The notes under the pieces were generated by a model. That model saw nothing but the letters and a program-made list of their open reading frames with translations. It had not been told where the DNA came from and ran no database searches. A DNA stretch of 51,175 nucleotides from a virus. Lineage: Duplodnaviria; Caudoviricetes. The position numbers were made by a program, and so were the translations under genes. Of this stretch, positions 2 to 16,600 are shown piece after piece. The stretch lies in the IMG/VR virus record IMGVR_UViG_3300020463_000032, positions 1-51,175 of that record; one strand, written 5' to 3'. Every line of letters begins with the position of its first letter. Positions within the stretch are counted from its first letter, which is position 1.

Positions 2-31
2 TAGACATATAATCAACTGTGGGTATATATT
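2..31 (+). promoter_or_regulatory. Putative sigma70-type promoter for the first early transcript
   Basis: TAGACA (2-7) followed by TATATA (24-29, 16-bp spacer) or TATATT (26-31, 18-bp spacer); lies at the window edge. Confidence 0.45.
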
Positions 32-40
32 TGACATAAG

Positions 41-433
41 GCCCCCTTTCGGGGGGCAGGGACTGAGAGAGTTAGTTCCAAGCGGTCGGGCTACCAAGCG
101 GACCCAGTAAAGGCGAGATCAGGACAGACGCTGCACCTCTTAGCAAAGGGCGAGTTTAGCACCTCGGAAATTCGATCTTCAAATCTCAGATACTTACGGC
201 CAGTAATCGCACCGTGAGTCTTGAAACAAGTGGGTCTTAACCCCACCTGAATGCAACCATCTTAGCCAGTCCAATAGGCGTCACTTAGTGAGAGCAGTGG
301 ACTGGGTAGCTTAGCCCCTGACTATCGGTCAGTTTAGGAAGCCTAGATCACGTGCTATCCGAAAGATAATGAACCGCTCCGCGGCTTCTATTCAGGTTCA
401 ATGAATTGGCAACGATTCATAATGGAATGCTAC
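41..433 (+). ncRNA. Candidate large structured non-coding RNA, family unassigned
   Basis: No ORF of 60 aa or more; more GC-rich than other intergenic DNA; helices at 41-57, 63-68/184-189, 192-199/212-219, 220-230, 230-246, 266-273/298-305, 318-332, 334-346, 356-368, 370-375/395-400 and 401-420 (GCAA loop). Confidence 0.65.
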
Positions 434-457
434 TTTTTAACCTTAACTTATTAACCT

Positions 458-517
458 TTCGAAACCGCTTAGGCGGTCTATACGAATTGATCACCGTATA
501 CTGACGAGATAGATCAC
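458..517 (+). ncRNA. Type II hammerhead ribozyme 1, predicted cleavage after C478
   Basis: C-GAAA, stem III CCGC-ttag-GCGG, GUC triplet, stem I TATACG/CGTATA, core CTGACGA-G; loop I TGATC is complementary to 3' tail GATCA (pseudoknot). Confidence 0.93.
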
Positions 518-553
518 TAACTTAACTTAAATCTTTTATTACAAAATAAAATT

Positions 554-898
554 ATGCCATCTACAGACAAACCAACATATTCTAACTTCAGAAAACATTC
601 CAATCTTCGCTGCTTTGTTGACCGTGACAGATTCCAAAGAGCCATATTATCAGGGGACATCGGAGGGGGTGCAATCCTTGTATCACCTCGGACTGCAACA
701 AGTGTGGGTACGTTCGAGGCCATCTACATCGGCTTTAACAGCCACAATGGAATGAACTATGTCGCTTGGAGGAGAGGCAATGAACCTCTTGAGAAATTTC
801 TTAAAAGAGCAGATAAGTTGGATGCCTATTACGACAGAGTCACCGCTTTCAGAAGCGAAGATTCGGAAGAGGCTGAAGGGTGGGCACCAAAGTTATAA
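554..898 (+). CDS. Hypothetical early protein, 114 aa, between hammerheads 1 and 2
   Basis: ORF follows the shared AT-rich leader; its TAA abuts ribozyme 2. Confidence 0.85.
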   Translation: MPSTDKPTYSNFRKHSNLRCFVDRDRFQRAILSGDIGGGAILVSPRTATSVGTFEAIYIGFNSHNGMNYVAWRRGNEPLEKFLKRADKLDAYYDRVTAFRSEDSEEAEGWAPKL

Positions 899-960
899 TT
901 CGAAACCGCTGCAAAGCGGTCCGTATGAATTGATCATCATACGCTGATGAGATAGATCAC
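899..960 (+). ncRNA. Type II hammerhead ribozyme 2, predicted cleavage after C921
   Basis: GAAA, stem III CCGCT-gcaa-AGCGG, GUC, stem I CGTATGA/TCATACG, CTGATGA-G, GATCA tail; compensatory changes relative to copy 1. Confidence 0.95.
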
Positions 961-985
961 CTTAACTTAAATCTTTTATTACAAA

Positions 986-1381
986 ATGAAATTAAATCTT
1001 AGACAAAATGGAATCAAATCTAAATGGATTCGCAGAGGCTTTGTGAAAATTGAAAACGATAAAATCAAATGGCTACATGAGCCAGAGGCAATGGCTTGCC
1101 GCTGGACTATTAATAAAGTATCTAAACATTTGACCTGCAACAAAGGCATAACTGATCAATTAAAAGATCGAGTAAAGATCAAAAATCAAATAGATGCAGT
1201 TAAACAAAAGGGCAGAATTAACACCCTATTTATGGGGACCGACTGCGATAATACGACATGGGAGCATCAGGTAAATATACCTGCTAACGTGATGAGCTTC
1301 ATTAAACTTTGGAATGATGAATGCGATAATTGCGAAGGCCAATTTCATGGAGGCCGTCCAGTACCTAATTGGGTGTCTTAA
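986..1381 (+). CDS. Hypothetical early protein, 131 aa, between hammerheads 2 and 3
   Basis: ORF follows the shared leader; TAA one base before ribozyme 3; DCD and CDNCEG motifs. Confidence 0.85.
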   Translation: MKLNLRQNGIKSKWIRRGFVKIENDKIKWLHEPEAMACRWTINKVSKHLTCNKGITDQLKDRVKIKNQIDAVKQKGRINTLFMGTDCDNTTWEHQVNIPANVMSFIKLWNDECDNCEGQFHGGRPVPNWVS

Positions 1382-1382
1382 A

Positions 1383-1442
1383 TTCGAAACCGCTTAGGCG
1401 GTCCGTATGAATTGATCATCATACGCTGATGAGATAGATCAC
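1383..1442 (+). ncRNA. Type II hammerhead ribozyme 3, predicted cleavage after C1403
   Basis: GAAA-CCGC-ttag-GCGG-TC, stem I CGTATGA/TCATACG, CTGATGA-G, GATCA tail. Confidence 0.95.
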
Positions 1443-1473: not shown

Positions 1474-1656
1474 ATGCCTAAATTATTAGCCCTTATTGAA
1501 AACGGTTTTATCACTGAATCTGAGGTAAAACTTGCAGCTACAAATTACGATTTGGACCCGATTATTAATGCCTTCGATGAGGCGGGCCAGTTCATTGAAA
1601 TTACTACTCTTGAAAGTGAATTGTTAAATCACTTCGAAGGTATCAGATACGACTAA
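1474..1656 (+). CDS. Small acidic hypothetical protein, 60 aa
   Basis: ORF downstream of ribozyme 3 with TAACTTAAC leader. Confidence 0.75.
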   Translation: MPKLLALIENGFITESEVKLAATNYDLDPIINAFDEAGQFIEITTLESELLNHFEGIRYD

Positions 1657-1698: not shown

Positions 1699-2916
1699 AT
1701 GATTAATAGATTCGCTAACACAGCAAAAATTACGATAGCCCAATTAAAGTTGGGCTTTAAACTATGGACCGAAAATCTAAATTTCGTTACCATTGCAGGG
1801 CCATCAGGTGATGGAAAAACTGAGATTGCAGCCACCGAACTGCCTGAAGTTTTAGGCATTGAGGATTCTCGCCTACATACTGAAGGCGGAGATGTTTATC
1901 TCCTTAACTACACTGACAAAGGCCCTCAAGAAGCTGCTGGTTATGGCAAGGTGAATGCTGATGGAATCCATATGGATTTCACAGCACCTCGCGATTTACC
2001 TACCGTCCACCGCGTTAAGAATACAGGCAACGGTGATATCAACCGCCCGATCCTTTTAATACTTGATGAGTTCAGTCTATACGATTCAACAGTTCAGGGA
2101 ATGATCAGGCCCTTGCAAGCTCGGAAGGGCAAGCCAATGTTCGGGACCCATGAGCTCGCACCAAACATCAGAATCCTGCTCACTGGAAACCGTATTGAAG
2201 ACGGTTCACAGAATGCAACGGACCCTGATCAGGCCATCTTAACACGTGGAAAGTTTTTCATTATCGATAACAACTTCACTGACTGGTACAAGTGGGCCGT
2301 CACTAAAGATTGGGCAGTTCAAAATGATATACTCAATTTCCTCACATATGTGAAATCTTTAGGCGATACTATCCGCACTGAGGATGGCGAAACACGCCTG
2401 AAGATTGATGAGATTTTCAAGCCCACTATCCCAATGTCAGGCACTGTAAATCCTACAGCATGTCCGAGACAATGGGAGAATGTTTGCCGAGAGTTCAAGT
2501 CTATTCAGGATATGAGCATAACTGATTCTGAAAAAGAGGACCTCTTGAGAATGTCTTTAAATGGTGCGGTGGGAATCAATGTCACTGAAGATATCATGAG
2601 CTTTATCGAGTCCATAAAGGATGCGATTCCTAAATATCAGGATGTCCGCAATGACCTTAAATCAATGGCAGACTTTAGCGGTATTGATGCAATGGCGGTG
2701 CTTTCCATAGCAGCCCAACGCGCTATCAAAGAAGCTAAAAAAATTAGTGGATCTGATAAGCCTGAGCAGATCAAAAAAGATACAGGCCATGAAACGCAGC
2801 GCGGTTCTTTTGACTGGTTCACTGACAAGTTCATCGGACCTGCCACCAATAAAGAGATGGCCCGCTTCGCACTTGAGAATGTTCAGAGGTTCGTCCCTCT
2901 AAAAGATAACTCCTAA
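1699..2916 (+). CDS. AAA+ ATPase, MoxR/dynein-related type
   Basis: Walker A GPSGDGKT, Walker B ILLILDE, sensor-1 LTGNR, CPRQWE motif; vWA gene nearby. Confidence 0.85.
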   Translation: MINRFANTAKITIAQLKLGFKLWTENLNFVTIAGPSGDGKTEIAATELPEVLGIEDSRLHTEGGDVYLLNYTDKGPQEAAGYGKVNADGIHMDFTAPRDLPTVHRVKNTGNGDINRPILLILDEFSLYDSTVQGMIRPLQARKGKPMFGTHELAPNIRILLTGNRIEDGSQNATDPDQAILTRGKFFIIDNNFTDWYKWAVTKDWAVQNDILNFLTYVKSLGDTIRTEDGETRLKIDEIFKPTIPMSGTVNPTACPRQWENVCREFKSIQDMSITDSEKEDLLRMSLNGAVGINVTEDIMSFIESIKDAIPKYQDVRNDLKSMADFSGIDAMAVLSIAAQRAIKEAKKISGSDKPEQIKKDTGHETQRGSFDWFTDKFIGPATNKEMARFALENVQRFVPLKDNS

Positions 2917-2969
2917 TATTAACCTTAACTTATTAACTTTATTAAAAAATAAATTAACTAACTGTAATC

Positions 2970-3914
2970 ATGAAAATGAAATCATTCGACATTGAAAAGA
3001 TAAGCAACGGACTTAGCTCCATTGTAAACGTATATGTGAAGTTCACTTCACCTAATCTCAGCAAGAAAAACAGCAAGCTAATTGCTGAACTTGCTGATAA
3101 ATATAACACTGATGAGTCCAGTCTATTGGCCTCTGAAAAGTTATTCCTGAGACGAGATACGATCTTCGGAAAGCTCTCATCGAGCATCGTAAAATTTAAA
3201 ACTGCGGTGGCTGCTGATGAAAATAACAAGGGCCTTAAACTGCCTACGAATCCAATGACTGGGGCTATCGAAGTTCCTGCTGATCAGCTTATGAGAAAGC
3301 TAGAGATTCGTGACAAGTTCATCGGGCCTGAAGGTGAGTTCACCATCCTGAAGGAACGCCTTCGCGGTATATTCTCAGAGCTGAAAGCTGCCTCTAAACA
3401 GAGGCTCGGTAAGCTCGGTGAAGAGCATGACTGGGACTCATTCACTGAAGCAAAATTCGTGGATAAGTATACCCTGAAGATGCACTGGGTCCAGTCCACC
3501 TACGCGCTAAAAACTAGCCGTGACTTAGCCGTAGCTCAAGAGGTTGCTGACATCGCGACTGCGAATCAGCATGATGCAATGGTGAATCTTGCTAAAGGAT
3601 CTATCAGTAACTTGCTAAGTTCAATGACTGATGAGCTAAAGAAATCCCTATCGCAAGTCCGTGAGGGTGATCGATTCGGGCAGCTTGCATTCGATAGGTT
3701 CGGACGCGCATACAATGCCCTGAACTCTAAGAGTAAATCCTTTTTTAATAAAGGGGATATAACTGAGCTCGATGACTTGCTCGATAAGTTCAATGGCCTT
3801 GGCAAAATCAAGCGCGATAACATTGAAACAAAGACGCAGCGTAGTAAGACCGCTGACCGTATTGAGTCCGTATTGAGTGAGCATGATGACCTCATGGAGC
3901 AGCTCGGACTTTAA
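2970..3914 (+). CDS. Helical hypothetical protein of the AAA-vWA module (possibly DUF3150-like)
   Basis: 314-aa ORF between AAA and vWA genes; family guess rests on size and context only. Confidence 0.6.
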   Translation: MKMKSFDIEKISNGLSSIVNVYVKFTSPNLSKKNSKLIAELADKYNTDESSLLASEKLFLRRDTIFGKLSSSIVKFKTAVAADENNKGLKLPTNPMTGAIEVPADQLMRKLEIRDKFIGPEGEFTILKERLRGIFSELKAASKQRLGKLGEEHDWDSFTEAKFVDKYTLKMHWVQSTYALKTSRDLAVAQEVADIATANQHDAMVNLAKGSISNLLSSMTDELKKSLSQVREGDRFGQLAFDRFGRAYNALNSKSKSFFNKGDITELDDLLDKFNGLGKIKRDNIETKTQRSKTADRIESVLSEHDDLMEQLGL

Positions 3915-3927
3915 CCCTGAACCCTGA

Positions 3928-3955
3928 TCACTGCCCCCTAAACAGGGGGCGGTGA
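3928..3955. other. GC-rich hairpin without a following U tract
   Basis: TCACTGCCCCCT-aaac-AGGGGGCGGTGA followed by AAAAG; could be a stabilising hairpin or a weak terminator. Confidence 0.6.
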
Positions 3956-3962
3956 AAAAGAT

Positions 3963-3990
3963 TTGACATCAATAAACAATTAACTATTAT
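3963..3990 (+). promoter_or_regulatory. sigma70-type promoter of the vWA gene
   Basis: TTGACA-16 bp-TATTAT. Confidence 0.7.
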
Positions 3991-3995
3991 CCTAT

Positions 3996-4028
3996 CCTAA
4001 CTTAACTAACTTAACTAACTTAACTAAC
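3996..4028 (+). promoter_or_regulatory. Tandem CTAACTTAA leader repeat directly before ATG
   Basis: cctaacttaactaacttaactaacttaactaac-ATG; related motifs precede most early genes. Confidence 0.8.
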
Positions 4029-5597
4029 ATGGAAATTTTAGACATAAACCCTAAGAGCACCTGCCCTATGGTGAGGGCTCGTTATCAAGTCCTGAAGATT
4101 GTTTCAGGCGTACTAAAAACTATCGCGGGGACCGTTCAATTTGTACGCGATAATACTGTAGATCTTGCAGCGACTGATGGTAATTTCATATTCGTATCAG
4201 ACCGATGCTTCGTGATGGCTAAGAATGGTAAGTTCACCATCAATGGCAAGCGCGTCAGTGCTATCGCAGCATGGCGGACTGTAATTTTACATGAGTACCT
4301 CCACATTTTATTGGGACACTGCACATACAGAATGAGAGATCTTAATGCGAACCCTGCCACCAAAAACATAGCGATGGACCACGCGGTCAATCTGATGGCT
4401 CAGGAAATCGAGCGCACTGCTGACTGCTCAGTGCTCCGTGAACTAGGAATCATGGGCAACATCTTCCCAATCTTTGACGGCCTCTTTTGTGATGCTAAGT
4501 ACACTGATCAGGATGCTGAGACAATCCTTAATGACCTTATTAAAAAAGGAGATAAGGGTACTGACATCAATGAGCCTGAAGGTATCACGGACGGGGACAC
4601 CAATCCTGATGGTGATCCAACGGACGGTGACGGAGATGGTGATACTGATGCGGACGCTGATGGCGATGACCCAACGGACGGAGGTAGTGATGGTGAGGCA
4701 GATGGAGATGGAGATGGAGACGCAGATGGAGATGGAGATGGAGACGCAGATGGAGACGCAGATGGCGAAGGCGGTTCAGATGGAGACGCAGATGGCGAAG
4801 GCGGTTCAGATGGAGATGCAGATGGCGAAGGTTCAAGTGACTCTGGATCTGGAGCGGGTGGTCAGGTCAGTGACAATGTAAGATATCCTGATCTCGAAGA
4901 GGGCGAGACCCCTGAAGAGGCCGACGCGAAGGCCCGCAAGAAAATCAAAGAGGCCGTGAGGATTCAGGAGATGAGCAAAAAAGCGGGACTCGAAGAGGTT
5001 AAAGACGGACTGACTCGTAAAGTATCTGAAGCATTCACAGCTAAAGCTAAAGTACCGTGGCAAAAAGTTCTTACCAACTGGCTCAAGCGTACTCTCAGCG
5101 GTGGATGGGACAAGCCTCAGAACCTCCCAGTCTTAGGCGCGACTGATTTATTCAGCGCGGGCCGTGGATCTAAGAAGCTACCTGAGATCGCGTACATCAT
5201 CGACACTAGCTACTCAATGTCTGATGATGTAGTGAATGACGGACTCGATCAGCTTGAGAATTTGATGAGGCAGTACAAGCCTAAGAAGACTCACGTTATA
5301 TGCTGCTCAACTGAGGTCGAGCTCAACAAGTCCAGATCTTACTCCTCAAATCAGAGGATCGATAGATCAATCATCACGGGCGGTGGTGGAACTAGATTTG
5401 TCCCCGCCTTCGAATATGTAAAACGCTACCATCCGAATGTCGGTGCGGTGGTGTACATCACGGACGGTGAATGCGATCAGCGTAATCAAATACCTCAGCA
5501 CTTGTTACCTGCCAAGTTGCTATGGGTTGTTTACGGTGGCATGAAACCCGAACGCTTTAAGTTAGGTAAAGTAGTAGAAGCTCCACCAGTGAGCTAG
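4029..5597 (+). CDS. DUF2201-like putative metallopeptidase plus vWA domain protein
   Basis: HEYLH zincin motif, NIAMDHAVN, acidic Asp/Gly linker, MIDAS DTSYS, GGGGT and YITDG motifs. Confidence 0.88.
   Translation: MEILDINPKSTCPMVRARYQVLKIVSGVLKTIAGTVQFVRDNTVDLAATDGNFIFVSDRCFVMAKNGKFTINGKRVSAIAAWRTVILHEYLHILLGHCTYRMRDLNANPATKNIAMDHAVNLMAQEIERTADCSVLRELGIMGNIFPIFDGLFCDAKYTDQDAETILNDLIKKGDKGTDINEPEGITDGDTNPDGDPTDGDGDGDTDADADGDDPTDGGSDGEADGDGDGDADGDGDGDADGDADGEGGSDGDADGEGGSDGDADGEGSSDSGSGAGGQVSDNVRYPDLEEGETPEEADAKARKKIKEAVRIQEMSKKAGLEEVKDGLTRKVSEAFTAKAKVPWQKVLTNWLKRTLSGGWDKPQNLPVLGATDLFSAGRGSKKLPEIAYIIDTSYSMSDDVVNDGLDQLENLMRQYKPKKTHVICCSTEVELNKSRSYSSNQRIDRSIITGGGGTRFVPAFEYVKRYHPNVGAVVYITDGECDQRNQIPQHLLPAKLLWVVYGGMKPERFKLGKVVEAPPVS
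4698..4835 (+). repeat. In-frame tandem repeats encoding the Asp-Gly linker
   Basis: 24-nt GCAGATGGAGATGGAGATGGAGAC x2 and a 30-nt GDADGEGGSD unit about x3. Confidence 0.9.
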
Positions 5598-5664: not shown

Positions 5665-5982
5665 ATGAAAAATCATTACGTCATAACAACTCAATATCTT
5701 GAGAACTATGGAGCCCACTCTGGTAGTGGAAAGTTTTCTGATGGGCAAGCTCATTGGAAGTTCAAGGGCGGTGAGCAATACCTCATCTCCACAGAGTCAC
5801 AGCAGTATGCGGATGCGGTCGCATTCTTGACAGCTTATTTACATGAGAGTAATAACAGCGTCCACTCAAAAGAGATCGTGGTCTCATGGGATCATGAGCC
5901 ATTGGTAAACCCATCTAACGCAAAGGATGAAGGATATATAGCAATAGATATCGAGGAATATTTTAAACAAACTCAAAAATAA
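5665..5982 (+). CDS. Hypothetical phage protein, 105 aa
   Basis: TQYLENYGAH and WKFKGG motifs recall a conserved small phage protein family. Confidence 0.8.
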   Translation: MKNHYVITTQYLENYGAHSGSGKFSDGQAHWKFKGGEQYLISTESQQYADAVAFLTAYLHESNNSVHSKEIVVSWDHEPLVNPSNAKDEGYIAIDIEEYFKQTQK

Positions 5983-6243
5983 ATGAAGCAAGAAATAGTA
6001 AAAGAAGTTCGCCTCGATTACTTAGACCATGCGTATGATCTAATCAAATGGAGGGTTGATGATCTACATGGAGCGGATCACACAGGAGTAACAGAAGAAA
6101 GAGAGAATTTAGAAAAGACTCTAACTCTTTTGAATGACCTCGCTGTAGGGAACAAGTGGATAATACTGTCTAAAAAAATTACAAAGATCAACGAAATAAA
6201 AAACAAAGAAATCTCGATATGCTTACAATATTCTTCATCTTAA
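5983..6243 (+). CDS. Hypothetical protein
   Basis: Starts immediately after the previous stop. Confidence 0.7.
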   Translation: MKQEIVKEVRLDYLDHAYDLIKWRVDDLHGADHTGVTEERENLEKTLTLLNDLAVGNKWIILSKKITKINEIKNKEISICLQYSSS

Positions 6244-6503
6244 TCTGGATCTTATTAACGATCCTCTTCTTGCGTTTCTTCTACGTATCGAACCCACCTC
6301 AAAAGGTTAACACCATTTACGTGGGGTTAGATCACAACGAATGGAATGTCATACTTAAATGCATTGACCAGTGCATAAAGTCTGGTCCTCGATCTGATGC
6401 AGACTACGAAGGGTATCGTCCTCAAGAAGAGGAGGAACGCATAGCCGTGGGCCGTGAGATCGCGTACCAAGTTTGTAACCATATTGAATCTGAACTTAAA
6501 TAA
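6219..6503 (+). CDS. Hypothetical protein with N-terminal transmembrane helix
   Basis: Hydrophobic N-terminus LTIFFILIWILLTILFL. Confidence 0.7.
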   Translation: MLTIFFILIWILLTILFLRFFYVSNPPQKVNTIYVGLDHNEWNVILKCIDQCIKSGPRSDADYEGYRPQEEEERIAVGREIAYQVCNHIESELK

Positions 6504-6508
6504 TAACT

Positions 6509-6580
6509 ATGATAATTAACAAAGATAATCCCCATGATGACGAACCGATAGACATCTACGGTTCAGGCGATGAAGATTAA
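6509..6580 (+). CDS. Possible 23-aa acidic peptide
   Basis: MIINKDNPHDDEPIDIYGSGDED fills the gap between ORFs; below the ORF-track threshold. Confidence 0.4.
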   Translation: MIINKDNPHDDEPIDIYGSGDED

Positions 6581-6602
6581 ATAACTTAATTAATTTAAAA
6601 AT

Positions 6603-6899
6603 ATGCAGCCGATAACAATACCAACAATTGACTTTAAATATCATCAGGGATCTTATGCGCCTGACTGGTTTGATTCATGCGATCCTTATCATTATGCTAT
6701 TACAAGTGGCACTAGTCCCTTTAATGAGTATTACGGATTTAATAATGATGAAGACGTTCACAAACTGGCTCATTCATTTACAAGTCAAACTTTTATAGAT
6801 GACTTTGTGTTCCTCGAAGACAAAAACGCATGGCACTATTCCGAAGATATGACGTTAGCCGATGAAAGGGCAATGCTAGAAGCTGAATCAAGATTCTAA
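6603..6899 (+). CDS. Hypothetical acidic/aromatic protein
   Basis: ORF with TAACTTAA leader. Confidence 0.75.
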   Translation: MQPITIPTIDFKYHQGSYAPDWFDSCDPYHYAITSGTSPFNEYYGFNNDEDVHKLAHSFTSQTFIDDFVFLEDKNAWHYSEDMTLADERAMLEAESRF

Positions 6900-6935
6900 A
6901 AATATATCCAATCAAAATCTGAACTTAAATAATTT

Positions 6936-7166
6936 ATGAAAAAAATAATTAACGACTTCATTGATAGGACTCTGTTCATATCTCTTTGCTCATTACTTTT
7001 TATCCTTTTCCTGCTGATCGCTGCAATAGCGGGAGGCTACGTAGCGGACGCGAGGATCGCTGTAATGAGGATCAGTGGATTCGAGATGTTCCTTTGTCTC
7101 GTGATCCTTCCCGCAATCACTGCATCTATCTGGATGCTTGTCGATAAACTTAACGAGAAACATTAA
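6936..7166 (+). CDS. Small membrane protein with two TM helices
   Basis: Two long hydrophobic segments. Confidence 0.75.
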   Translation: MKKIINDFIDRTLFISLCSLLFILFLLIAAIAGGYVADARIAVMRISGFEMFLCLVILPAITASIWMLVDKLNEKH

Positions 7167-7183
7167 CTTAACTAAACTTAATC

Positions 7184-8557
7184 ATGAATAAATCATTATC
7201 TAGAAACGGGATGCATTTCAATCCCGACCAACAGCCTTATCCTTTTGACGAAGGATTTAATCCCGTAGGAATAACGGATTCTAAACTGAAAAGAAAATAT
7301 CTCGATGCTATATCTAGGGCATTTGTCCGCGCTGTTTACCGCTCAAACGGGTATGGGAATGCTAATAGCTACTGTAGAGAATTTAAAAAAGTAATTCATT
7401 CGAAGCTTTATAATTCTTTTTTTCCTAAAAGATTTAAGAACGTACCTGCTTTTTGTGACCCTCGTTTGTTTGGGGTGGCTAACTTATTTACTTATCTTGA
7501 GCACGGTACTAATACAACAGCAGCTAAAGAGGACGATGGTAAGGCAACGGCAGCATGGAGGGATCTTCATATAAACCTGTTGGGTTTTAACTACCCTGTT
7601 TATTTTCTTGATGAGACTACAGAACAAATGATTATCGATTCTAAGTTAGATCCTACTTTGACCTTAGCGGACATCGAGTTTGTATTGCCGAGCTTCTTAA
7701 TTTGTTTACCAAAAAAAGATTCATGTTCCTTATCGGCTCTACGAAAAGGAAAAGGCTCTGATTACATAGCTACTATTGGGGTAGCTAGATCTTTCGAGAT
7801 GTACAATTCAATCACTGATACTTACACTTCAAACCTCGATCAAGAATGGGAATACATGGGAGGATGTAACTCTCATAACATGAATAAGATGATAGTTGAA
7901 AGCGGGGATGGACCTTGGAGGGAGATAGGTGATGCAATGCTAGAACACTGGGCTAACATGGATATCAATGATGAGTCTGGAAGAGTAAATACATCTACCT
8001 TTCAAGATCCTGAAGTGACAAATAAAATGTGGCGATCAGGTCAGTATAAAATACAGCCCGTCCTTAACGTGGGTTGCGTTAGTGGAACTACGCTCAAACT
8101 TCCCGCCCGTTTCCGCATGGATGATCCAGTACCCGTTACTGAATTGATAGAATTAAATAGGGCTCTTGCCGATGAACTTCCCGACAAGGCGGAATTGATG
8201 ACATCAAACTGGACGGGCCCTCAGATGGCTGATATGCTTGAGTTTACCCTCAAAATTATGGCTTTCATGGCTGCTAAACCTGAAGAGGTCAGCACTGTAG
8301 CCAAACAAACTCAACCCGCTAAAGTTCGTAGAGGTTACACTCTTCGTGAATCTGAATGGAGTCCTAACATCATCGGCAAAAGGTACGGAGCTACTCTTCG
8401 TAGACAAGGGTACACTTCTGATGACGGGGACAAAGATAAGAACAGACCGCACTGGAGGAGAGCTCACCAAAGAAGACAGAGGTATGGTAAACATTCTGCC
8501 AAAGAGAAATTAATATGGGTCGATGCCGTCTTCGTGAATGACCCTGAAAAAGATTAA
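7184..8557 (+). CDS. Hypothetical protein with C-terminal PHWRRxH motif
   Basis: 457 aa; RPHWRRAHQRRQRYG...IWVDAVFVN tail of a kind seen in many phage proteins. Confidence 0.85.
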   Translation: MNKSLSRNGMHFNPDQQPYPFDEGFNPVGITDSKLKRKYLDAISRAFVRAVYRSNGYGNANSYCREFKKVIHSKLYNSFFPKRFKNVPAFCDPRLFGVANLFTYLEHGTNTTAAKEDDGKATAAWRDLHINLLGFNYPVYFLDETTEQMIIDSKLDPTLTLADIEFVLPSFLICLPKKDSCSLSALRKGKGSDYIATIGVARSFEMYNSITDTYTSNLDQEWEYMGGCNSHNMNKMIVESGDGPWREIGDAMLEHWANMDINDESGRVNTSTFQDPEVTNKMWRSGQYKIQPVLNVGCVSGTTLKLPARFRMDDPVPVTELIELNRALADELPDKAELMTSNWTGPQMADMLEFTLKIMAFMAAKPEEVSTVAKQTQPAKVRRGYTLRESEWSPNIIGKRYGATLRRQGYTSDDGDKDKNRPHWRRAHQRRQRYGKHSAKEKLIWVDAVFVNDPEKD

Positions 8558-8564
8558 TAGAATT

Positions 8565-8635
8565 GGGCATTGCGTCGGAGATTTGGTACTCTGGTTATTT
8601 TCATACGCCCGTCAGGTAAACGCATAAAACCTGAC
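8565..8635 (+). ncRNA. Candidate pseudoknotted RNA element
   Basis: GGGC/GCCC encloses CGGAG/CTCTG; then hairpin GTCAGGT/ACCTGAC whose loop ACGCA is complementary to TGCGT (8571-8575). Confidence 0.5.
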
Positions 8636-8644
8636 ACTAAATTT

Positions 8645-8672
8645 AACCCTGAACCCTGAACCCTGAACCCTG
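8645..8672. repeat. (AACCCTG)4 tandem heptamer
   Basis: Four perfect copies; two more at 3913-3926. Confidence 0.95.
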
Positions 8673-8716
8673 ATTCATTTTACAAAAAATAAATTAACTA
8701 ATAACTAAAACTAAAC

Positions 8717-8980
8717 ATGGAAACTATAGCTATAGATAAAACTAAAACTGAAACTAAAACTGAAACTAATAAGTATCTACTTCAATACACCATCACGGTG
8801 CAAATTCCAGTGGAGGCAGAGGATGAGGAAGCAGCTTACGATGAAGCTCATGATACAGATCCTCTCGACTATATTAACGACGTAAGGAATATTGATATTG
8901 AACTCGAAAGAGCGGTCGAGCTTACCGAAGACGAGTGGGCTTGGTGGGCTAGAAAGAGAAAGAAGAGCAGTGCCAAGTAA
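8717..8980 (+). CDS. Hypothetical protein
   Basis: ITVQIPVEAEDEEAAY motif typical of small phage proteins; TAAC-type leader. Confidence 0.8.
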   Translation: METIAIDKTKTETKTETNKYLLQYTITVQIPVEAEDEEAAYDEAHDTDPLDYINDVRNIDIELERAVELTEDEWAWWARKRKKSSAK

Positions 8981-9242
8981 TCACATATCAAACGAACCTT
9001 ATCACGAATGGCTACGTGATAAGGTGAAACGTGATAACGATAAAACCAAACGCGAAACCTTAGCCAAACAAATAAAAGAACTAAATATGGAATCTCAAGT
9101 AGATGTAGTAGAAGAAGAAGTCTCTCAGTTGAGAGAAGCACGTAACGAGTTAGCAGCAATGTTAGCTCACGTATTGGGGTCCAAAGAAAACTTGAAGAAG
9201 TTTTTGGAGGACTGGAATAAAAAGAAATTGACTAGTCAATAA
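8970..9242 (+). CDS. Coiled-coil hypothetical protein
   Basis: In frame with track ORF 8892..9242; GTG at 8970 gives a short overlap and is the likelier start. Confidence 0.7.
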   Translation: MPSNHISNEPYHEWLRDKVKRDNDKTKRETLAKQIKELNMESQVDVVEEEVSQLREARNELAAMLAHVLGSKENLKKFLEDWNKKKLTSQ

Positions 9243-9297
9243 TACATTATATATTAATTATAACTTAACCCTAAATTCATTTATTAAAAAAGTAATT

Positions 9298-9759
9298 ATG
9301 ACACCCTTAACTAAAGCAGTACATCGGGTGGTAGTGATCGAAGATCAGGAGTATATAGCTTCTCTCGTCCCTGCCACGGAAAAGCAGCCCGCAGCCTTCA
9401 CACTTCGTAAGAAGAAACATCGATCCTTGTCATCTTGGATTGCTATGGATGATTCACTTGTGGATCATGCTGATGATGAAGAAGCTGAAGCTGAGTACGA
9501 ACCCATAACACAAGCGGAGAAATCCGCGCAACACGTAGCTAAACGATTAGCCGTTCAGTTGGCTCTTAATAATGCTAGAGAGAATGATCTAATCCATCCG
9601 AAGGACTTGGAGATGTGGTCCAAATATTCGTACCCAAAATTCTTGGAAGCGTGGGCTCGCTATAAAACAGCGTTAGCTTTTCACAAAGATCCTGCGCTTA
9701 TCAAGATTGTTTGGGGAAAGAATAACGAGATCGTAGTCTATTGTCCTGAGTTTGTATAA
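9298..9759 (+). CDS. Hypothetical protein
   Basis: 153-aa ORF with TAACTTAACC leader at 9261. Confidence 0.8.
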   Translation: MTPLTKAVHRVVVIEDQEYIASLVPATEKQPAAFTLRKKKHRSLSSWIAMDDSLVDHADDEEAEAEYEPITQAEKSAQHVAKRLAVQLALNNARENDLIHPKDLEMWSKYSYPKFLEAWARYKTALAFHKDPALIKIVWGKNNEIVVYCPEFV

Positions 9760-9961
9760 GATGAGGATTATTAGACAAGTGTTTCCGCAAGGACATCCGA
9801 TCATTGTGGATGCACAACTGGATGATGACAACGGGGTCGTACAAGACTCCGTTGTTATTTATCCAATACTCCCTGACGGAATAATAGGGGAACCTATCTT
9901 CAGTAAGGAGGACCCTGAAACAAAAATATTAGACGAAATTATTAACGACCTGTTAGAATAA
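9752..9961 (+). CDS. Hypothetical protein
   Basis: Coupled ORF; ATG at 9761 is an alternative start. Confidence 0.7.
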   Translation: MYKMRIIRQVFPQGHPIIVDAQLDDDNGVVQDSVVIYPILPDGIIGEPIFSKEDPETKILDEIINDLLE

Positions 9962-9967
9962 AAATAA

Positions 9968-10294
9968 ATGCAGTTAACTTACAAAATATCACCGCAAGCT
10001 ATCGCGAAAGCGATCAGTAAAGTCTCTGGATTTTCAGTTTATGAACTGAGGAACGAAGGACATTCACATACACTCGCCCAGTGGAGACACTTGGGAATGT
10101 ACTTGGCCCGTGAATCGGGAATGACGTACGTTGAAGCGGGTGAAGTATTCAATCGCCACTTCTCAACAGCACTGACATCACATAGGAAAGTCAAGAAATC
10201 CTTGGATGATCCTCAGATAGCAGATGCTTTAGGACAAATTAAAAACTTTTTGGATAAAGAAAATAAAGACGATGGAAATCAAGAGATTCTATAA
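9968..10294 (+). CDS. Stand-alone DnaA domain IV-like HTH protein
   Basis: RHLGMYLARE-SGMTYVEAGEVF-NRHFSTALTSHRKV parallels the DnaA C-terminal signature RQIAMYLxRE...IGxxFGGRDHTTV. Confidence 0.8.
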   Translation: MQLTYKISPQAIAKAISKVSGFSVYELRNEGHSHTLAQWRHLGMYLARESGMTYVEAGEVFNRHFSTALTSHRKVKKSLDDPQIADALGQIKNFLDKENKDDGNQEIL

Positions 10295-10606: not shown

Positions 10607-13600
10607 TTACGGATCTACCGATAGGAACCTTGGGTACTTATTCAACTCAGCTTGGAAGTCTCGGAGTCTTTGGATATGGGTCTCTCCTTTTCTAGCCATA
10701 CTTTCGATCAATGGCATAGGCAATGACGGTCTATCCATGACTCCTTTGGCGAGTAGCAACTGGACTCGTCTCTTACTCATCCCCCTTCGGAGACTGATGT
10801 TATAGATCTCCTCTCTAGGTAAGCCTTGCCTTTCAAAAGATCTGTACAACTGAATGAGGTGAGCGTTGACTCTTCGTCTTCCCTCTATTTCTTTTTTTGC
10901 TAAAGAAGTTATATCCGCTTTGGTCATTACCCTGTCAGTTAACATTTTATATTTGTTTGAGTTGATCCTGTCGAACTCACCTTTCCTCTTCTCTACAAAT
11001 TGAGATAACCTGACATCAAACTCAATCGGATAAGTCGTTGCGGGTTTAAACTGTCCGATGATATTTGATATAATTTCAGGAGCCTTAGTGATGTCAAACC
11101 CATCTTTGAATATCGCTCTGTCCTCTAACAGTTTGGTAAGAGTTGGAGGAGTGTAAGCTTCATTCAATACATACTTAATAGACTTCGTAAATTTATCATG
11201 GAGCAGATCATTCTCTTCGTAGATAGGCTCTTGTTTCTTTGGGTCGAAGTTTGTTGTGCTGTTTAAGAAAGCCCTCATGAATATTTGCTGATCAAGAAAT
11301 TCACCTAGCGTACCTTTCACTAAACTCTCTACCGTTTTGGAAGTATTGCCGTGAACGAGATGCTCCATCGCCCTTAGTGAAGGGTCAGTTAACATCGAGT
11401 ATGGGTTAATGAAAGTTAAAGAGAAGTTCCTTCTCTCCTTAGTAAGAGGATTTGTATAGTACACGAGTGATTGATTCTGCATATACGGTGGCAACGTATC
11501 ACGAAGAGCTTCGTCATCATCGTAGAATACACCTTGTAGAAGTCTCGTAGTGATGGGAAGTATGACTGAAGATACTCCAGTAACAAACCCAATACCTGCT
11601 AGTCTTCTTCGTCCACGTTTTCTAATAACAGGGTTACTGTCTTTAGATTCCTTCATGGCTAAGTTCCACGTATTGAAATATGTTCTGATAACCTCACCTT
11701 TGAATCGAAGGAAAGGCGCGAACATAACTCCGAAGGTATGCCCCTGAAGTCCAGTGATAATAGGAGGAGCTTGAGAATATGTTTGAGAAGTCATGACAAC
11801 TTTCTCGGCTGCTAATCTCTTTAGTTCATAATCAGTTTTGGCAGCATAAAAATCTTGCTTGCCGTTCTTGCGAGAAGACTCTCTTGCATCGATGAGATAA
11901 CTAAGTTCGTGCTCGAACAAAGCTATCTTGTAGAAAGCATCAACGATAGCCGAAAGTTCTTTAGCCTTACCCCATGTTTTCTCATTAGCTTTCTCAGCTA
12001 ACTCTTTGCCTTTACGAGAAATGCTCTTGCCCTCTTCGTTCTCTAGCCTTGAAAGATTTTTTTCAAAATCATTTAAGACTGTTTCTGGAGAGGCCTGTCC
12101 ACTGAGGAGCTCTTCAATTAGCTTGGGCCTAATCTCGTTTCCGATAACATCAAGAGCTATCAGTTCTGTATAGTATGCATTAGACTTTTCTTGACGTATT
12201 CCTCTTCGATTTAATTCGGTCATCAAACTGTCTGTCATCTTCCCGAATCCAACGAAACCATTCGCGGGACCGAAGTAGAAAGCGTTTGATATTACGTTTC
12301 TTACATAGAAACCAATGTTACCTAAAGTCTTAGCTCCCAGAGATAAGCCTGTTATTCTAGCCATCAACTTAAAGGAACCACTCGCTATTTTTTCTGCGTC
12401 GTTCGCAGTCTCTTGAGTAGGCGGACTGAGTACACTCATCAAGCCATCAACCATTTCAGCGGGAGCAAAGAGTTGAACGTTCTTTGGTTCACCATCGACC
12501 TCGACCTCAAAGTTTCTGAATGGGTCATAAGCTTCTGTTCCTCCTGCTCTGATTTGTTTGTACCTACTTCCACCATACTCATCTATATTTTCTAGTCTCT
12601 TTTTCTTGAGTTCATCCTTTGTAAGTATCCACTCGTTTCCTTTTCTGCGTCCAACCTCTAATAAGTTTTTCATGAACGCTTGGTTCGATGCCATCATACC
12701 AACGCTGAGATAAGTACGTAGAAGATTCTTGAACCCTGCACCCTCGTCAGTTTCCTCTCCAAGCAGAGCCCTGATTGATTCATCAATATCTCTTTTCTTT
12801 TTCAACTGATTTATCAGAGGACTAGCAAAGGATTCAACAGCTTCGGGTCCTACTATCAAGTTATTTGCGTCCTTATCTTTATAACTATGAAGGAAAGAAA
12901 GCATCATTGACCTACCTAAGTCTTTGTTGTCGCTAAGTTCTTTCTTAGCTAGTGCGGTAGCTTCGGATTCTTCTTTACCATCTTTTATGAAGGCTTTAAT
13001 ACGCGCTTGTTTGTAGGTTTCTTCAAAATACTTAGCAGCATTATTCCTCACGGTTTCGAAGTTAGGATCTTTGGTAACTTTATCCAACCACCCTGCTTCA
13101 TTGAACATCTTATATGATCGGGTTATGTATATCCCTAAGTTGCTATCTATGGTAGCACTTAGATCTACGTCCACATTGTAGAGTTCTTTAAGTTTAATTG
13201 ATAGAGTGTCAACGATATCACGTATAGCTTTGAGCTCATTAACAAAGTCAGGAGATACCTTTTCCAGTTGAGTTAAGGCAGCGTCCTTTTTCTTTCTAAT
13301 GATTTCTTTTTGAACGTCTTCTTGTTTGCGGATGTCGTTCTTGTATTTGTTTGTAACATCCTCAAGAAGTGTTTTCTTTTCTTCTTCGGTGATCTCTTTA
13401 CGTTTAGCTCTTGCAATTATGTCCGCTTTTCTGGACTTGTGTTGCAGCTTCATTGAATCTTTGATATCATCAGGTATCGAGACGACTTCCGAAGACCCCG
13501 TAGCTTCAGATATCAATTCGTATGGTATACTAAATCCTTTATCAATAAAGTCTTTATCAAGTACCTTCCTTAACTCAATCGATCTTAGGTTAACATCATT

Positions 13601-16600
13601 CTGAACAGCACGGTTGAACGCTTCCCGTTGTTCGAACATACGCCTGACTCGGATATCAAGAGACCCAGTCATGGCGACTTTAAATTTACGCCACCAAGAA
13701 TCCTTACGTTTATCTGAATCATACACACCGTCCTCGTAAACAGGAGCTTCTAACATTTTCTCCAAGCTATCAACAGTGATACCTCCCGCAGAGTAAGTGT
13801 ACCCTGATATTGTTTTATCAGTAGCACCGAGCTCAGAGTACAAGAACGAATCCATTGTCGGATCAAACCTATCAGTCAAAGGAATTATATTCCCATCCTC
13901 ATCGTAAGTTACAGGATCGGATAACTTTATTTGTTCGGGTGTGAGTACAACTGTTATGGTAGCATCTTCCCCACTGTTTGTTACAAAATCAGCAGTCAAA
14001 GCATCTATACCAGTAACTTCTTTGAGAGCTTGGTGATAATATTTAGCGTATATACCACTACCGTTCATCTCTCCAAGCTGTTCGGCTATTGTTTCATTTT
14101 GAACAGGATCAGAAATCATTTCAACAGCGGCCTCTATGCTCCCAAAGTTGGCTACAAAAGTATCATTGATACTTGCTTCAGGATCTTCTTTTAGCATATC
14201 TTGAAACTCCAACTCGTTTACTCTTTCAAGTACGGGTCTCAGTTCCTCTGCCGAAAGAGGGGCGGAGTCATGAGGGCGTGGGTTGTTTACTTTCAGATAC
14301 GCAGAAAGAATTCTTCCTCTAAACTTACCTACGCGAGTATATCCCTCCGCAACTGTTTGTGATTTTGTGAAATAAAAACCTGTTCCATATTGAAAACCTG
14401 TACCGAATCCTATCTTACTGTAAGAGAATGCATCGAAATCAGCGGGGGTTCCGTGGAACAGAGGACCAACAGTGTACCCTGTAGCTTCCGCTGCTCGCTT
14501 CACTAACTGCTGAAGTACTTCTTTATTTCCTTCAGGATCTTGAGCCAACTCCATGTACCTATCGTTGGTAGCACCGAGTTCAGAGTATAAGATAGAATCT
14601 TTAGTTGTATCGAAGCGTTGTGATAAAGGTATCACTTCACCCGTGCTATCATAAGTTACAGGGTCTGCTGACTTTATGTTCTCTGGTTTATTGAGTATAA
14701 CATACTGCTCACCTGTAATATCCTTTTCACCGCTTACCCATTCGTCTTTACCAACAACAATACTATCACGCCCTTTAGCCTGTAGTCCTTCAAAGAACTC
14801 AGATTGATTATTCGGTTTAAATCTTTCCTCTGCAAAGGTCTTCCAAAAGTCAGGGTAGACTTCAGGGTTTTTCATTTTTAGATAAGCCTTAACTACTTTA
14901 GGCTCCTTCTTTTTGTACTCTTCAAACAAACCATCCTCATTCTCTTCGCCCATGAATGGGTAATCATCAATGAGATCTGCCTTCTGCTCTTCACTCCAGT
15001 TGTGATAACCAACGGCTGCTCTTTCGTTGTCCGCGAAAAAGAAAGCTCCCATCTCCCCTAAAGTTTTATCGGCTTGGAATATATCTATCTCCTCTGGACC
15101 CGCGTGATATCTAGGCTTGGTAATAAATCCTGCTTCTTTTGCAGCTTTGTCTACCATAGCCTGTAGTTCTTTTTGATTTCTTTGAGGGTTCTCAGCTAAC
15201 TTTAAGTACTCTCTATCAGTAGCACCGAGTTCAGAGTACAGTAGCTCCTCAACCTGTTCTTCTGTTAATGTCTCAGACTCTAAAGATTCACCCGCTGCTA
15301 CCCTTAACTCAGGCTGTCTGTCTGTGAGGTTACCACTAAGAATATCTTTTTTGTCGAAGGCAATTTTTTGAACAACATTAACATCGTTACCTGCATAATA
15401 TTTCAACACATAATCTTTTCGATTAGAGATAAAGAAACCATTAGTCATCTTTATAGGGCCTTCGAGGGGAGTGGACTGTCTAGAATCTGCACCAGAAACA
15501 GCTCTGCCATCTACAAGCCGAGATACTCTATATCCAACAAGCCTACCATCTTCTAACGTCTCGAACTGATTACCACCGAGTTCACTCCGTAAGGTTGTCA
15601 TATCTATAAGATCCTCACGAGTTGTTTCTGCTATCCTAATTTGAGAAGGATCAAATACGACCCAAGTACCAGAGCCCTCGTAATGAATCGCATCGTACCC
15701 ACTTAATTGTGAAACTAATTTAGTAACTCCTTCTTCTCCTACAGCCTCTATGTCTTCTTTAATTTTTTGAAACTTAGGGTTTACGTTAGCTAACTGGTTT
15801 ACCACCATACCAAACATTTGTGCTTGTGCTAAATACATTACAGGAGTCTCGTTAACCCTAAGTAAGTTAGCTTCTTCGTTTGTTAACTTATATTTAGCCC
15901 TTAAACCTTTAACTAACTCGTTGAAGAAAACTTCATTGTTACCTATGCCTTCCATAGCCCTTCTCGGAGTTGTAAAAACTTTATTAGCCTTCAGAAAGAC
16001 ATCATACATTTGTCCTTCTTTACCTTTGTCAATCTCAGCTAACTTAGAATCTTCAGTTTTAAAATAAAAACCAAAGCCTCCTCCGATATTCTTCCTATTG
16101 TAATCTCCAACAGACTTAACACCTTCGCTTTCAGCACCGTTAAATACTCTGACAAGATCACCTTCAACTAAATGATTGTTTCGAATTGCCTCGGCCTCGA
16201 TCAGCTTTTTAGTTTGTGGGACACTATAGTCAGCATCTTTCAATGACCTATTGAAATGTTCTTTAGATCCTACGACAACTGAGTTAGATGGATTAGGGTA
16301 CGCAACTGAATCTCTTGGGTTGCCCGTTAAGTTACCTAAAGTGATGTGGTATATCCTTTGCTTATCAGGAGAAGGTTCTCCTAGTATATACTTTTCTACA
16401 AAATTATTTAAGACTTCTTGTTCGACAACTCTTCGTACTAATGACTGCCTAAGCGTACCGTCTGGTTGTATTTGTGATACAATTTCGGGAGCGTGGAACG
16501 TGAGGTTAGGAAGTACTGCTGTAGTACTCTCCCCTAAACGACGGAAAGCTTCGCCTAATATATCAGTTTTGCCTTGCGCTTCTCTGCCTTGAACAAAAGC

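What the first reader, a model, noticed from the sequence alone, without database searches (positions are those of the whole stretch)
479..1403. Ribozyme-bounded single-ORF RNAs (443 and 482 nt) could circularise; ribozyme halves look shuffled
Seen: cleavage would release 479-921 and 922-1403, each holding one leader and one complete ORF. Joining the ends of either fragment rebuilds a whole hammerhead. Copy 3 has stem III of copy 1 and stem I of copy 2, so the apparent crossover falls around the cleavage site, and 521-547 equals 961-987 exactly. Known: hammerheads leave 5'-OH and 2',3'-cyclic phosphate ends, which RtcB or the ribozyme itself can ligate, as in retrozymes. Inference: protein-coding circular RNAs, and/or a cassette array in which ribozyme repeats are the gene-exchange points. 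No RT or integrase is present in the window.
Basis: inference. Interest (0 to 1): 0.82.

Follow-up and report, generated by a model that had tools for sequence, protein, structure and literature searches.

The report
Swappable phage genes between self-cutting RNAs
An uncultured phage has three hammerhead ribozyme motifs between small genes, and close relatives carry different genes between the same motifs, so the motifs likely cut one message into linear pieces and likely serve as DNA swap points, an arrangement described for phages in 2011; the proposed protein-coding RNA circles are untested and unlikely to be the main product.

Summary
Every sequence claim is confirmed. Three type II hammerheads (predicted cuts after 478, 921, 1403) flank two single ORFs, and their helices, including the loop-I/3'-tail pseudoknot, covary across relatives.

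The cassette reading holds: eight genomes show seven gene layouts between the same leader and ATPase gene. Ribozyme halves occur in all four combinations, but exchange is not tied to the cut. One clean gain/loss breakpoint lies 39-48 nt downstream of it, which favours DNA recombination between repeats.

Circles are unsupported, not refuted: no RNA run was available. Against them:
- Only 2 base pairs join the halves.
- Two relatives have a single ribozyme.
- 16 of 38 inter-ribozyme pieces in other phages hold several ORFs.
- No RtcB gene is in the 85%-complete genome.
- Perreault 2011 described such clusters and detected no circles.

The 1403>922 back-junction copies genomic copy 3 for 39 nt, so that test is confounded.

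Extra: the first ribozyme would free a conserved, covarying, ORF-free ~440-nt RNA with no Rfam match.

This scan noted similar arrays in 59 other genomes. New member of a known kind.

The parts
2..31 (+). sigma-70-type promoter-like site (TAGACA, 18 nt, TATATT); predicted start of the transcript near 38
   Evidence: 10 of 12 matches; such sites are not enriched over shuffles, 7 vs 10.9; the -35 hexamer TAGACA recurs at the same place in 5 of 6 relatives printed (L103 lacks it in the stretch printed)
38..457 (+). conserved, ORF-free structured leader; with the 5' half of ribozyme 1 it would be released as a ~440-nt RNA
   Evidence: 7-sequence alignment, 31 of 95 RNAalifold pairs with two-sided change; longest + strand ORF in the window's copy 17 aa; no Rfam match; 5' end inferred
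459..516 (+). type II hammerhead copy 1, predicted cut after 478; stem II 2 bp; pseudoknot loop I with 512-516
479..921 (+). predicted released piece 1 (443 nt): 3' half of copy 1, leader, orf114, 5' half of copy 2
   Evidence: release inferred
521..547 (+). AT-rich translation leader, exact 27-nt repeat of 961-987; candidate recombination block
   Evidence: replacement in run X2 begins after 547
554..898 (+). orf114, unknown function, cassette gene
   Evidence: no Pfam, PHROGs or PADLOC family; 7 homologues besides itself; absent from L007, L008, L095, L101, L103, L105; present in runs X11 and X3
900..959 (+). type II hammerhead copy 2, predicted cut after 921
922..1403 (+). predicted released piece 2 (482 nt): 3' half of copy 2, leader, orf131, 5' half of copy 3
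   Evidence: release inferred
986..1381 (+). orf131, unknown function, cassette gene
   Evidence: no family; distant relatives share a D-C-D motif; model pLDDT 72.5 matches only uncharacterised phage proteins; best PDB Z 5.5
1384..1441 (+). type II hammerhead copy 3, predicted cut after 1403; its 3' product has no ribozyme at its far end
1474..1656 (+). orf60, cassette gene; first gene behind the leader ribozyme in L007, L008, L094 and L095
1699..2916 (+). ATPase (phrog_1297, E 7.5e-22), fixed right-hand anchor of the array

Best explanation
Three type II hammerhead motifs sit at gene junctions of a variable gene array in an uncultured phage; they are predicted to cut a likely early transcript into linear RNAs and likely double as DNA recombination sites through which the small genes are swapped. 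Steps: (1) Shown: intact, covarying hammerhead structure, each core starting 3-4 nt after the upstream stop and cutting 64-75 nt before the next ATG. (2) Inferred from the family's published activity: co-transcriptional cleavage gives a ~440-nt structured leader RNA, two single-gene mRNAs and a polycistronic remainder that starts at orf60. (3) Inferred: each downstream piece starts with a 5'-OH hairpin/pseudoknot plus a standard AT-rich leader, so a gene dropped into any slot gets the same 5' end, as with the engineered RiboJ insulator. (4) Shown: gene content and ribozyme halves differ between near-identical phages. (5) Inferred: homologous recombination in the ~90-nt ribozyme-plus-leader repeat does the swapping, as for PeSL cassettes of T4-type phages. 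Crossovers survive where they do not break a helix, which includes the stem III/stem I border at the cut. Circles, if formed, would be a by-product of a host ligase.
For: Covariation in 11 clade copies. Seven layouts in eight genomes between the same leader and ATPase: window/L096 H-114-H-131-H-60; L007/L099 and L008 H-60-69-H; L095 H-60; L103 H-108; L101 H-101-H-73-H; L105 H-73-H; L094 H-60 then a further ORF to the contig end. L105 equals L101 minus one cassette, with the breakpoint in a 10-nt block 39-48 nt after the cut. The same gene lies behind different stem I types: orf60, orf73, ATPase and orf114 (run X11). DNA contigs show rearranged joints at the repeats in 6 of 8 runs laid (X2, X3, X4, X5, X11, X13; X1 showed none and X17 laid nothing). 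Wider family: cut-to-ATG 45-80 nt in 62 of 82 (median 63); stop within 20 nt of the core in 65 of 82; 55 of 81 contigs show one ribozyme in the flank fetched; 38 pieces span 276-2,054 nt, with 21 single-ORF, 16 multi-ORF and 1 empty. Three prophage clusters cleaved in vitro and one in E. coli, with no circular or spliced product detected (PMC3088659). RiboJ raises transcript about twofold and protein 2-10-fold (PMC6206723 abstract). Repeat-mediated shuffling and DNA mini-circles are shown for PeSLs without an integrase (PMC2839356). The phage has a predicted exonuclease and Holliday junction resolvase.
Against: No RNA data: cleavage, transcription start, early timing and end chemistry are not shown for this phage. 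Stabilisation is uncertain: hammerhead-cut viroid RNA did not accumulate in E. coli as a linear monomer either when no ligase was supplied (PMC5789856), and glmS cleavage leads to decay (PMC6765202). A ribozyme is not needed before every gene: the window's ATPase, orf69 in L007/L008 and the gene after orf60 in L094 have none. The four-way assortment across only 6 identical bases ending at the cut is a short tract for DNA recombination and is what RNA-level re-ligation would also predict. The single-ribozyme count is an upper bound (flanks at most 4 kb, often cut by contig ends, 5 loci with about 300 nt), and the family sample came from a pattern built on this window's copies. Several joints have sides under 30 nt at 85% likeness. 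Rfam scores are below the cut-off.
Confidence: 0.68

Rival explanations
1. The 443- and 482-nt pieces are sealed into circles by a host RtcB-type ligase, or by the ribozyme, and the circles are the working, translated mRNAs.
For: Hammerhead ends suit RtcB, which circularised retrozyme monomers 30-80% in vitro (PMC7229834 passages). RtcB-family genes ring in 10 of 14 control genomes, so the unknown host may have one. Predicted folds bring the two ends of each piece near each other, in non-hammerhead pairings. The sizes overlap or lie close to those of animal retrozyme circles (170-400 nt).
Against: The halves are joined by 2 contiguous stem II pairs in 14 of 15 clade copies (3 in one), and the pseudoknot lies wholly in the 3' half. 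Self-ligation was 1-3% even for type I retrozymes. Hammerhead-cut viroid RNA gave very minor circles in E. coli without an added ligase. Perreault 2011 detected none (data not shown there). L095 and L103 have one ribozyme between leader and ATPase, so they cannot make such a circle. Pieces vary from 276 to 2,054 nt and hold 0-5 ORFs. No RtcB in this record or in two relatives (all incomplete). The ORFs have stops and there is no endless frame.
Confidence: 0.07
2. Cleavage mainly uncouples or shortens the life of each message, so that host-takeover or anti-defence genes are expressed as a brief pulse or at separate levels; stabilisation is not the point.
For: glmS precedent, and the suggestion that processed pieces differ in stability or translation (PMC6765202 passages). 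Cut viroid RNA was degraded in E. coli.
Against: The conserved cut-to-ATG spacing and the folded 5' end left on each downstream gene fit a defined 5' end better than decay. RiboJ raises expression. No ligand-binding module was seen.
Confidence: 0.13
3. The selected job is to free the ~440-nt structured leader RNA; the internal copies are duplicates carried along by cassette recombination.
For: The ribozyme right behind the leader is the only position kept in all 8 genomes. The leader is ORF-free and covaries.
Against: Internal copies keep every core base and compensate their helices. In other phages the same family sits between ordinary genes, and the leader profile found no full-length match outside this clade among the loci held. 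Per-sequence folding z-scores of the leader are modest (-0.9 to -3.0).
Confidence: 0.08
4. Cassettes move through an RNA intermediate (cut piece or circle, copied by a host RT and re-inserted), as retrozymes do.
For: Four-way assortment of the halves across a 6-nt block that ends at the cut.
Against: The released piece is not the unit of exchange: genes change their flanking halves, and breakpoints lie downstream of the cut. No RT in the record. Cassettes were seen only at this one locus of the genome.
Confidence: 0.03

Closest known systems
Clustered type II hammerheads flanking genes in prophages (Perreault et al. 2011, PMC3088659; Rfam RF02276)
   Same: Type II topology, 2-bp stem II, loop-I/3'-tail pseudoknot, several copies flanking single genes or short blocks whose identity is not constant; processing and circle ideas both raised there.
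   Different: Here no integrase was found; swaps and breakpoints are resolved between phages with 88-98% ATPase identity; a conserved structured leader precedes the array; the copies score below the Rfam cut-off.
PeSL regulatory cassettes of T4-type phages (PMC2839356)
   Same: ~100-nt intergenic repeats flanking ORFans in a variable region; gain, loss and replacement by recombination between repeats, giving chimeric repeats; no dedicated integrase.
   Different: PeSLs are promoter plus terminator; here the repeat is a ribozyme plus translation leader under one upstream promoter-like site. DNA mini-circles are shown for PeSLs and untested here.
Retrozymes (PMC7229834, PMC6155905)
   Same: Direct-repeat hammerheads release a few-hundred-nt RNA with ligatable ends.
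   Different: Retrozymes use type I or III hammerheads, are non-coding, highly self-paired, multi-copy in eukaryotic genomes, and abundant as circles. These are type II, coding, at one locus, with unrelated sequence between the repeats.
RiboJ insulator (PMC6206723)
   Same: A self-cleaving ribozyme set just ahead of a translation start removes upstream context.
   Different: Engineered. The effect on expression is shown for RiboJ and only inferred here.
RNase III processing of T7 early mRNA (recalled, no call)
   Same: One early transcript cut between genes at structured intergenic sites.
   Different: Host enzyme and 5'-phosphate ends rather than RNA catalysis and 5'-OH ends.

Membership tests
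Type II hammerhead ribozyme | Core CUGANGA, GAAA and NUH triplet | tested here: met
   all three copies; 15 clade copies
Type II hammerhead ribozyme | Stems I and III closed by loops, stem II open | tested here: met
Type II hammerhead ribozyme | Pseudoknot of loop I with the 3' tail | tested here: met
   5 pairs in each window copy; one pair switches U-A/G-C in 6 vs 5 copies
Type II hammerhead ribozyme | Rfam RF02276 at gathering score | tested here: not met
   26.5 bits (copy 1) and 34.5 bits (L101) against 37; copies 2 and 3 not listed; stem II strands and tail differ from the model consensus
Type II hammerhead ribozyme | Site-specific self-cleavage | not testable with these tools
   no RNA run; shown for other clusters
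Clustered phage hammerheads (Perreault 2011) | Several copies flank single genes or short blocks in a phage genome | tested here: met
Clustered phage hammerheads (Perreault 2011) | Flanked genes are not constant | tested here: met
   seven layouts in eight genomes
Retrozyme | Type I or III hammerheads | tested here: not met
   type II
Retrozyme | Non-coding unit repeated in tandem or dispersed | tested here: not met
   the units hold unrelated ORFs; three copies at one locus only
Retrozyme | Abundant circular RNA in vivo | not testable with these tools
   no RNA holder listed
PeSL-type shuffling cassette | Gain, loss or replacement of ORFans with breakpoints inside the repeats | tested here: met
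   L101/L105; runs X2, X11
PeSL-type shuffling cassette | Repeat is a promoter plus terminator | tested here: not met
   no + strand promoter- or terminator-like site within the three repeats
PeSL-type shuffling cassette | DNA mini-circles | tested here: inconclusive
   only contigs could be laid; the one backward joint (X11, 1442 to 521) is explained by a different gene order within a long contig
Integron | Tyrosine integrase beside the array | tested here: not met
   no PF00589 match in the 85%-complete record; the ~1 kb upstream of the window in L096 held no long ORF

The most novel reading that the evidence does not exclude
During infection a host RtcB-type ligase seals the ribozyme-cut single-gene pieces into nuclease-resistant circles that are translated, making these natural protein-coding circular mRNAs of a DNA phage, while the first ribozyme frees a ~440-nt structured RNA of a class not in Rfam.
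Probability: 0.07. Interest if true: 0.8.

Novelty: new member of a known kind. Interest (0 to 1): 0.33.

Why it matters
Why phages put self-cleaving ribozymes between small genes is still open (PMC6155905, PMC6765202 passages). This clade shows directly that the repeats are where small genes are gained, lost and replaced, and that ribozyme halves mix, which supports a plug-and-play expression cassette model. Natural one-, two- and three-ribozyme variants give ready contrasts for a cell-free or E. coli reporter test. The structured leader is a separate lead for an undescribed phage RNA. The phage is uncultured and its host unknown, which limits in vivo tests.

Tried and rejected
RNA evidence: no RNA holder listed, so back-junctions could not be sought; this blank is no evidence either way. 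Only DNA-type contigs were laid (8 of 24 listed runs; X17 laid nothing).

Partition-function test of stem II re-forming in the cut pieces (4e-5 and 5e-3): rejected as uninformative, because intact ribozymes score as low (5e-5 to 9e-4).

Four-gamete tests for upstream gene vs stem III and stem I vs downstream gene found no complete set among the 15 assembled copies. The argument there rests on genes seen with two stem types and on the L101/L105 breakpoint.

Assembly artefact: rejected (L096).

Host: not found. No ATPase relative in genome contigs. Cultured-phage matches are distant, 24-30% identity. The 19 genome hits to a leader motif gave no full-length profile match. My first guess of a Bacteroidota host, from the AT-rich leaders, is not supported by any search.

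Function of the cassette proteins: no family. Atlas hits were under 0.9 or absent. The orf114 model was too poor to search (pLDDT 48). The orf131 PDB matches are generic (Z at most 5.5).

The MALAT1 Rfam hit (E 3.6) is chance. Five of 12 metagenome loci (L097, L098, L100, L102, L104) had no hammerhead or similarity and were dropped; 4 of 81 viral contigs had no descriptor hit. L096 and L101 were not held for the RtcB search.

No earlier scan note on this sequence or on a back-junction test.

Full report
Setting. The window is an 85%-complete virus record with a terminase, family A DNA polymerase, helicase, exonuclease, Holliday junction resolvase, primase and endolysin. The best-matching run is labelled marine metagenome, and its contigs match with no differences over several pieces. 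No cultured relative or host was found. The finding lies at the start of a + strand block of small genes, which follows about 1 kb without a long ORF and a divergent - strand block in the independent assembly L096. That position suggests early genes; this is inference.

Observation. All coordinates check out. The three motifs have the full hammerhead core, GUC triplets ending at 478, 921 and 1403, hairpin stems I and III, a 2-bp open stem II, and a 5-bp pseudoknot between loop I and the 3' tail. I counted pairs on 11 of the 15 clade copies listed, leaving out four that were identical or near-identical to rows already included. 97.7% of 220 cells pair, 8 of 20 pairs change on both sides, including one pseudoknot pair, and slid controls fall to 16-42%. 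Related copies are not independent, so the shuffle counts are not probabilities. Rfam finds the family only below its cut-off.

Relatives. Pattern scans gave two virus records and 7 clade loci among 12 metagenome loci. With duplicates merged (window = L096; L007 = L099), eight genomes show seven layouts between the same leader and, where reached, the same ATPase (71-98% identity). Writing H for a ribozyme, they are: H-114-H-131-H-60; H-60-69-H (two genomes); H-60; H-108; H-101-H-73-H; H-73-H; and H-60 followed by a further ORF up to the contig end. Contigs from other runs add more. In X2, 548-1377 is replaced by 288 other bases. In X11, orf114 stands behind a copy-2-type ribozyme. In five runs the ATPase directly follows a ribozyme leader, although some of these joints have short sides. 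Gene content is therefore not fixed.

Where exchange happens. Two stem III types and two stem I types occur in all four combinations, and only 6 identical bases ending at the cut separate them. It does not single out the cut. L105 equals L101 minus the orf101 cassette, with the switch in a 10-nt block 39-48 nt after the cut. orf60, orf73 and the ATPase each occur behind two stem I types, and orf114 does too. The released RNA piece is thus not the unit that moves. A copy-3-like ribozyme also exists in L101, so copy 3 need not have arisen from this genome's copies 1 and 2. My reading (inference) is DNA recombination across the repeat, filtered by the need to keep helices paired. Stem III and stem I plus pseudoknot are independent modules, so the cut is one of the few harmless crossover points. 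PeSL repeats of T4-type phages show the same gain, loss and chimeric repeats, and DNA mini-circles, without an integrase (PMC2839356, passages).

Circles. The test could not be run: no RNA holder was listed, which is no evidence either way.

For circles: the end chemistry; RtcB sealed retrozyme monomers 30-80% in vitro (PMC7229834, passages); RtcB-family genes are common in the control genomes (10 of 14); predicted folds put the ends near each other.

Against circles: two contiguous pairs link the halves and the pseudoknot stays in the 3' half; self-ligation was 1-3% for type I retrozymes; hammerhead-cut viroid RNA gave very minor circles in E. coli without an added ligase, though the linear monomer did not accumulate either (PMC5789856, passages). 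Perreault et al. describe such clusters with variable genes, showed cleavage, raised circles and could not detect them (PMC3088659, section 6 read whole; passages). Two relatives have a single ribozyme. In 81 virus contigs found with a looser pattern, 55 show one motif in the flank fetched (an upper bound), 22 show two to eight and 4 none; 38 pieces run 276-2,054 nt, with 16 holding several ORFs. No RtcB, RT or integrase gene is in the record, and the circles would have no endless frame. The 1403>922 junction reads as genomic copy 3 for 39 nt, so short back-junction reads would mislead.

Mechanism. What is conserved across the family is position: the cut lies 45-80 nt before an ATG in 62 of 82 cases, and the core starts within 20 nt of a stop in 65 of 82. 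In the window these distances are 64-75 and 3-4 nt. That points to setting the 5' end of the downstream message. RiboJ gives an engineered precedent for higher expression (PMC6206723, abstract only). That 5'-OH and folded ends slow RNase E and exonucleases is recalled, not tested, and and the glmS case (PMC6765202, passages) show that cleavage can equally lead to decay. A 2026 paper links ribozyme cleavage to translation initiation in fungal RNA viruses (PMC13725137, passages); it concerns eukaryotic translation and is only an analogy.

The leader. Between a promoter-like site at 2-31 and ribozyme 1 lie about 420 ORF-free bases conserved in 7 aligned sequences; 31 of 95 consensus pairs show two-sided change. 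Single-sequence folding z-scores are modest, -0.9 to -3.0. Rfam has no match, and a profile found it only in this clade among the loci held. The ribozyme behind it is the one position kept in all eight genomes. It would be released as a ~440-nt RNA; its job is not known, and a cis role (5' leader, protein-binding site) is as possible as a trans role.

What is known. The arrangement is a member of the clustered phage hammerheads of 2011. Reviews call their role open (PMC6155905, passages; PMC6765202, passages). It works like a PeSL array in evolution but is not one, and it fails the retrozyme tests that could be run. In nine literature searches (listings only, open-licence library) I saw no report of circles from phage hammerhead clusters and none mapping swaps to them; subscription journals are not covered. 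I opened no supplements; Perreault's Dataset S1 may already list members of this family. The scan's own notes hold 59 similar findings in other genomes, which are unchecked leads and were not used as support.

Verdict. Observation confirmed; cassette exchange supported; circular mRNA unsupported and unlikely. New member of a known kind, interest 0.33, lifted a little by the resolved swaps and the unexplained leader RNA.

Noticed in passing
window 38-457: Conserved ORF-free structured leader with compensatory changes and swappable sub-hairpins (L008 and L094 carry a shorter variant; L094 has a 20-nt insert); no Rfam family; would be freed by ribozyme 1.
   Followed up: partly
window 10607-25930 (-): 5,107-aa protein with three ART-PolyVal (PF18760) stretches and DUF7178 and no DxDxD motif; looks like a phage polyvalent protein (label recalled).
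   Followed up: partly
window 1699-5597: ATPase, 314-aa unknown protein, and a DUF2201 metallopeptidase/VWA protein with an acidic G-D repeat of variable length among relatives; a fixed block after the variable array.
   Followed up: no
window 5665-10294: Second variable stretch without ribozymes: ORFs at 5665, 5983 and 6603 have no match in L007/L008; its AT-rich leaders resemble those of the ribozyme cassettes.
   Followed up: no
L096, about 1 kb upstream of the window's first base: Conserved stretch without a long ORF between divergent gene blocks, with a ~50-nt imperfect palindrome; candidate genome end, packaging or origin region.
   Followed up: no
L011:2269-5295, L014, L009/L010, L064: Other phages with 4-8 hammerheads of this family; L011 has eight in 3 kb, mostly one per gene.
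   Followed up: partly
window 9968-10294: Small protein with a DnaA C-terminal helix-turn-helix (PF08299, E 3e-10), conserved in L008.
   Followed up: no
run X11 contigs at window 479 and 1403: Loose ends show a further stem I type not present in any assembled locus.
   Followed up: no
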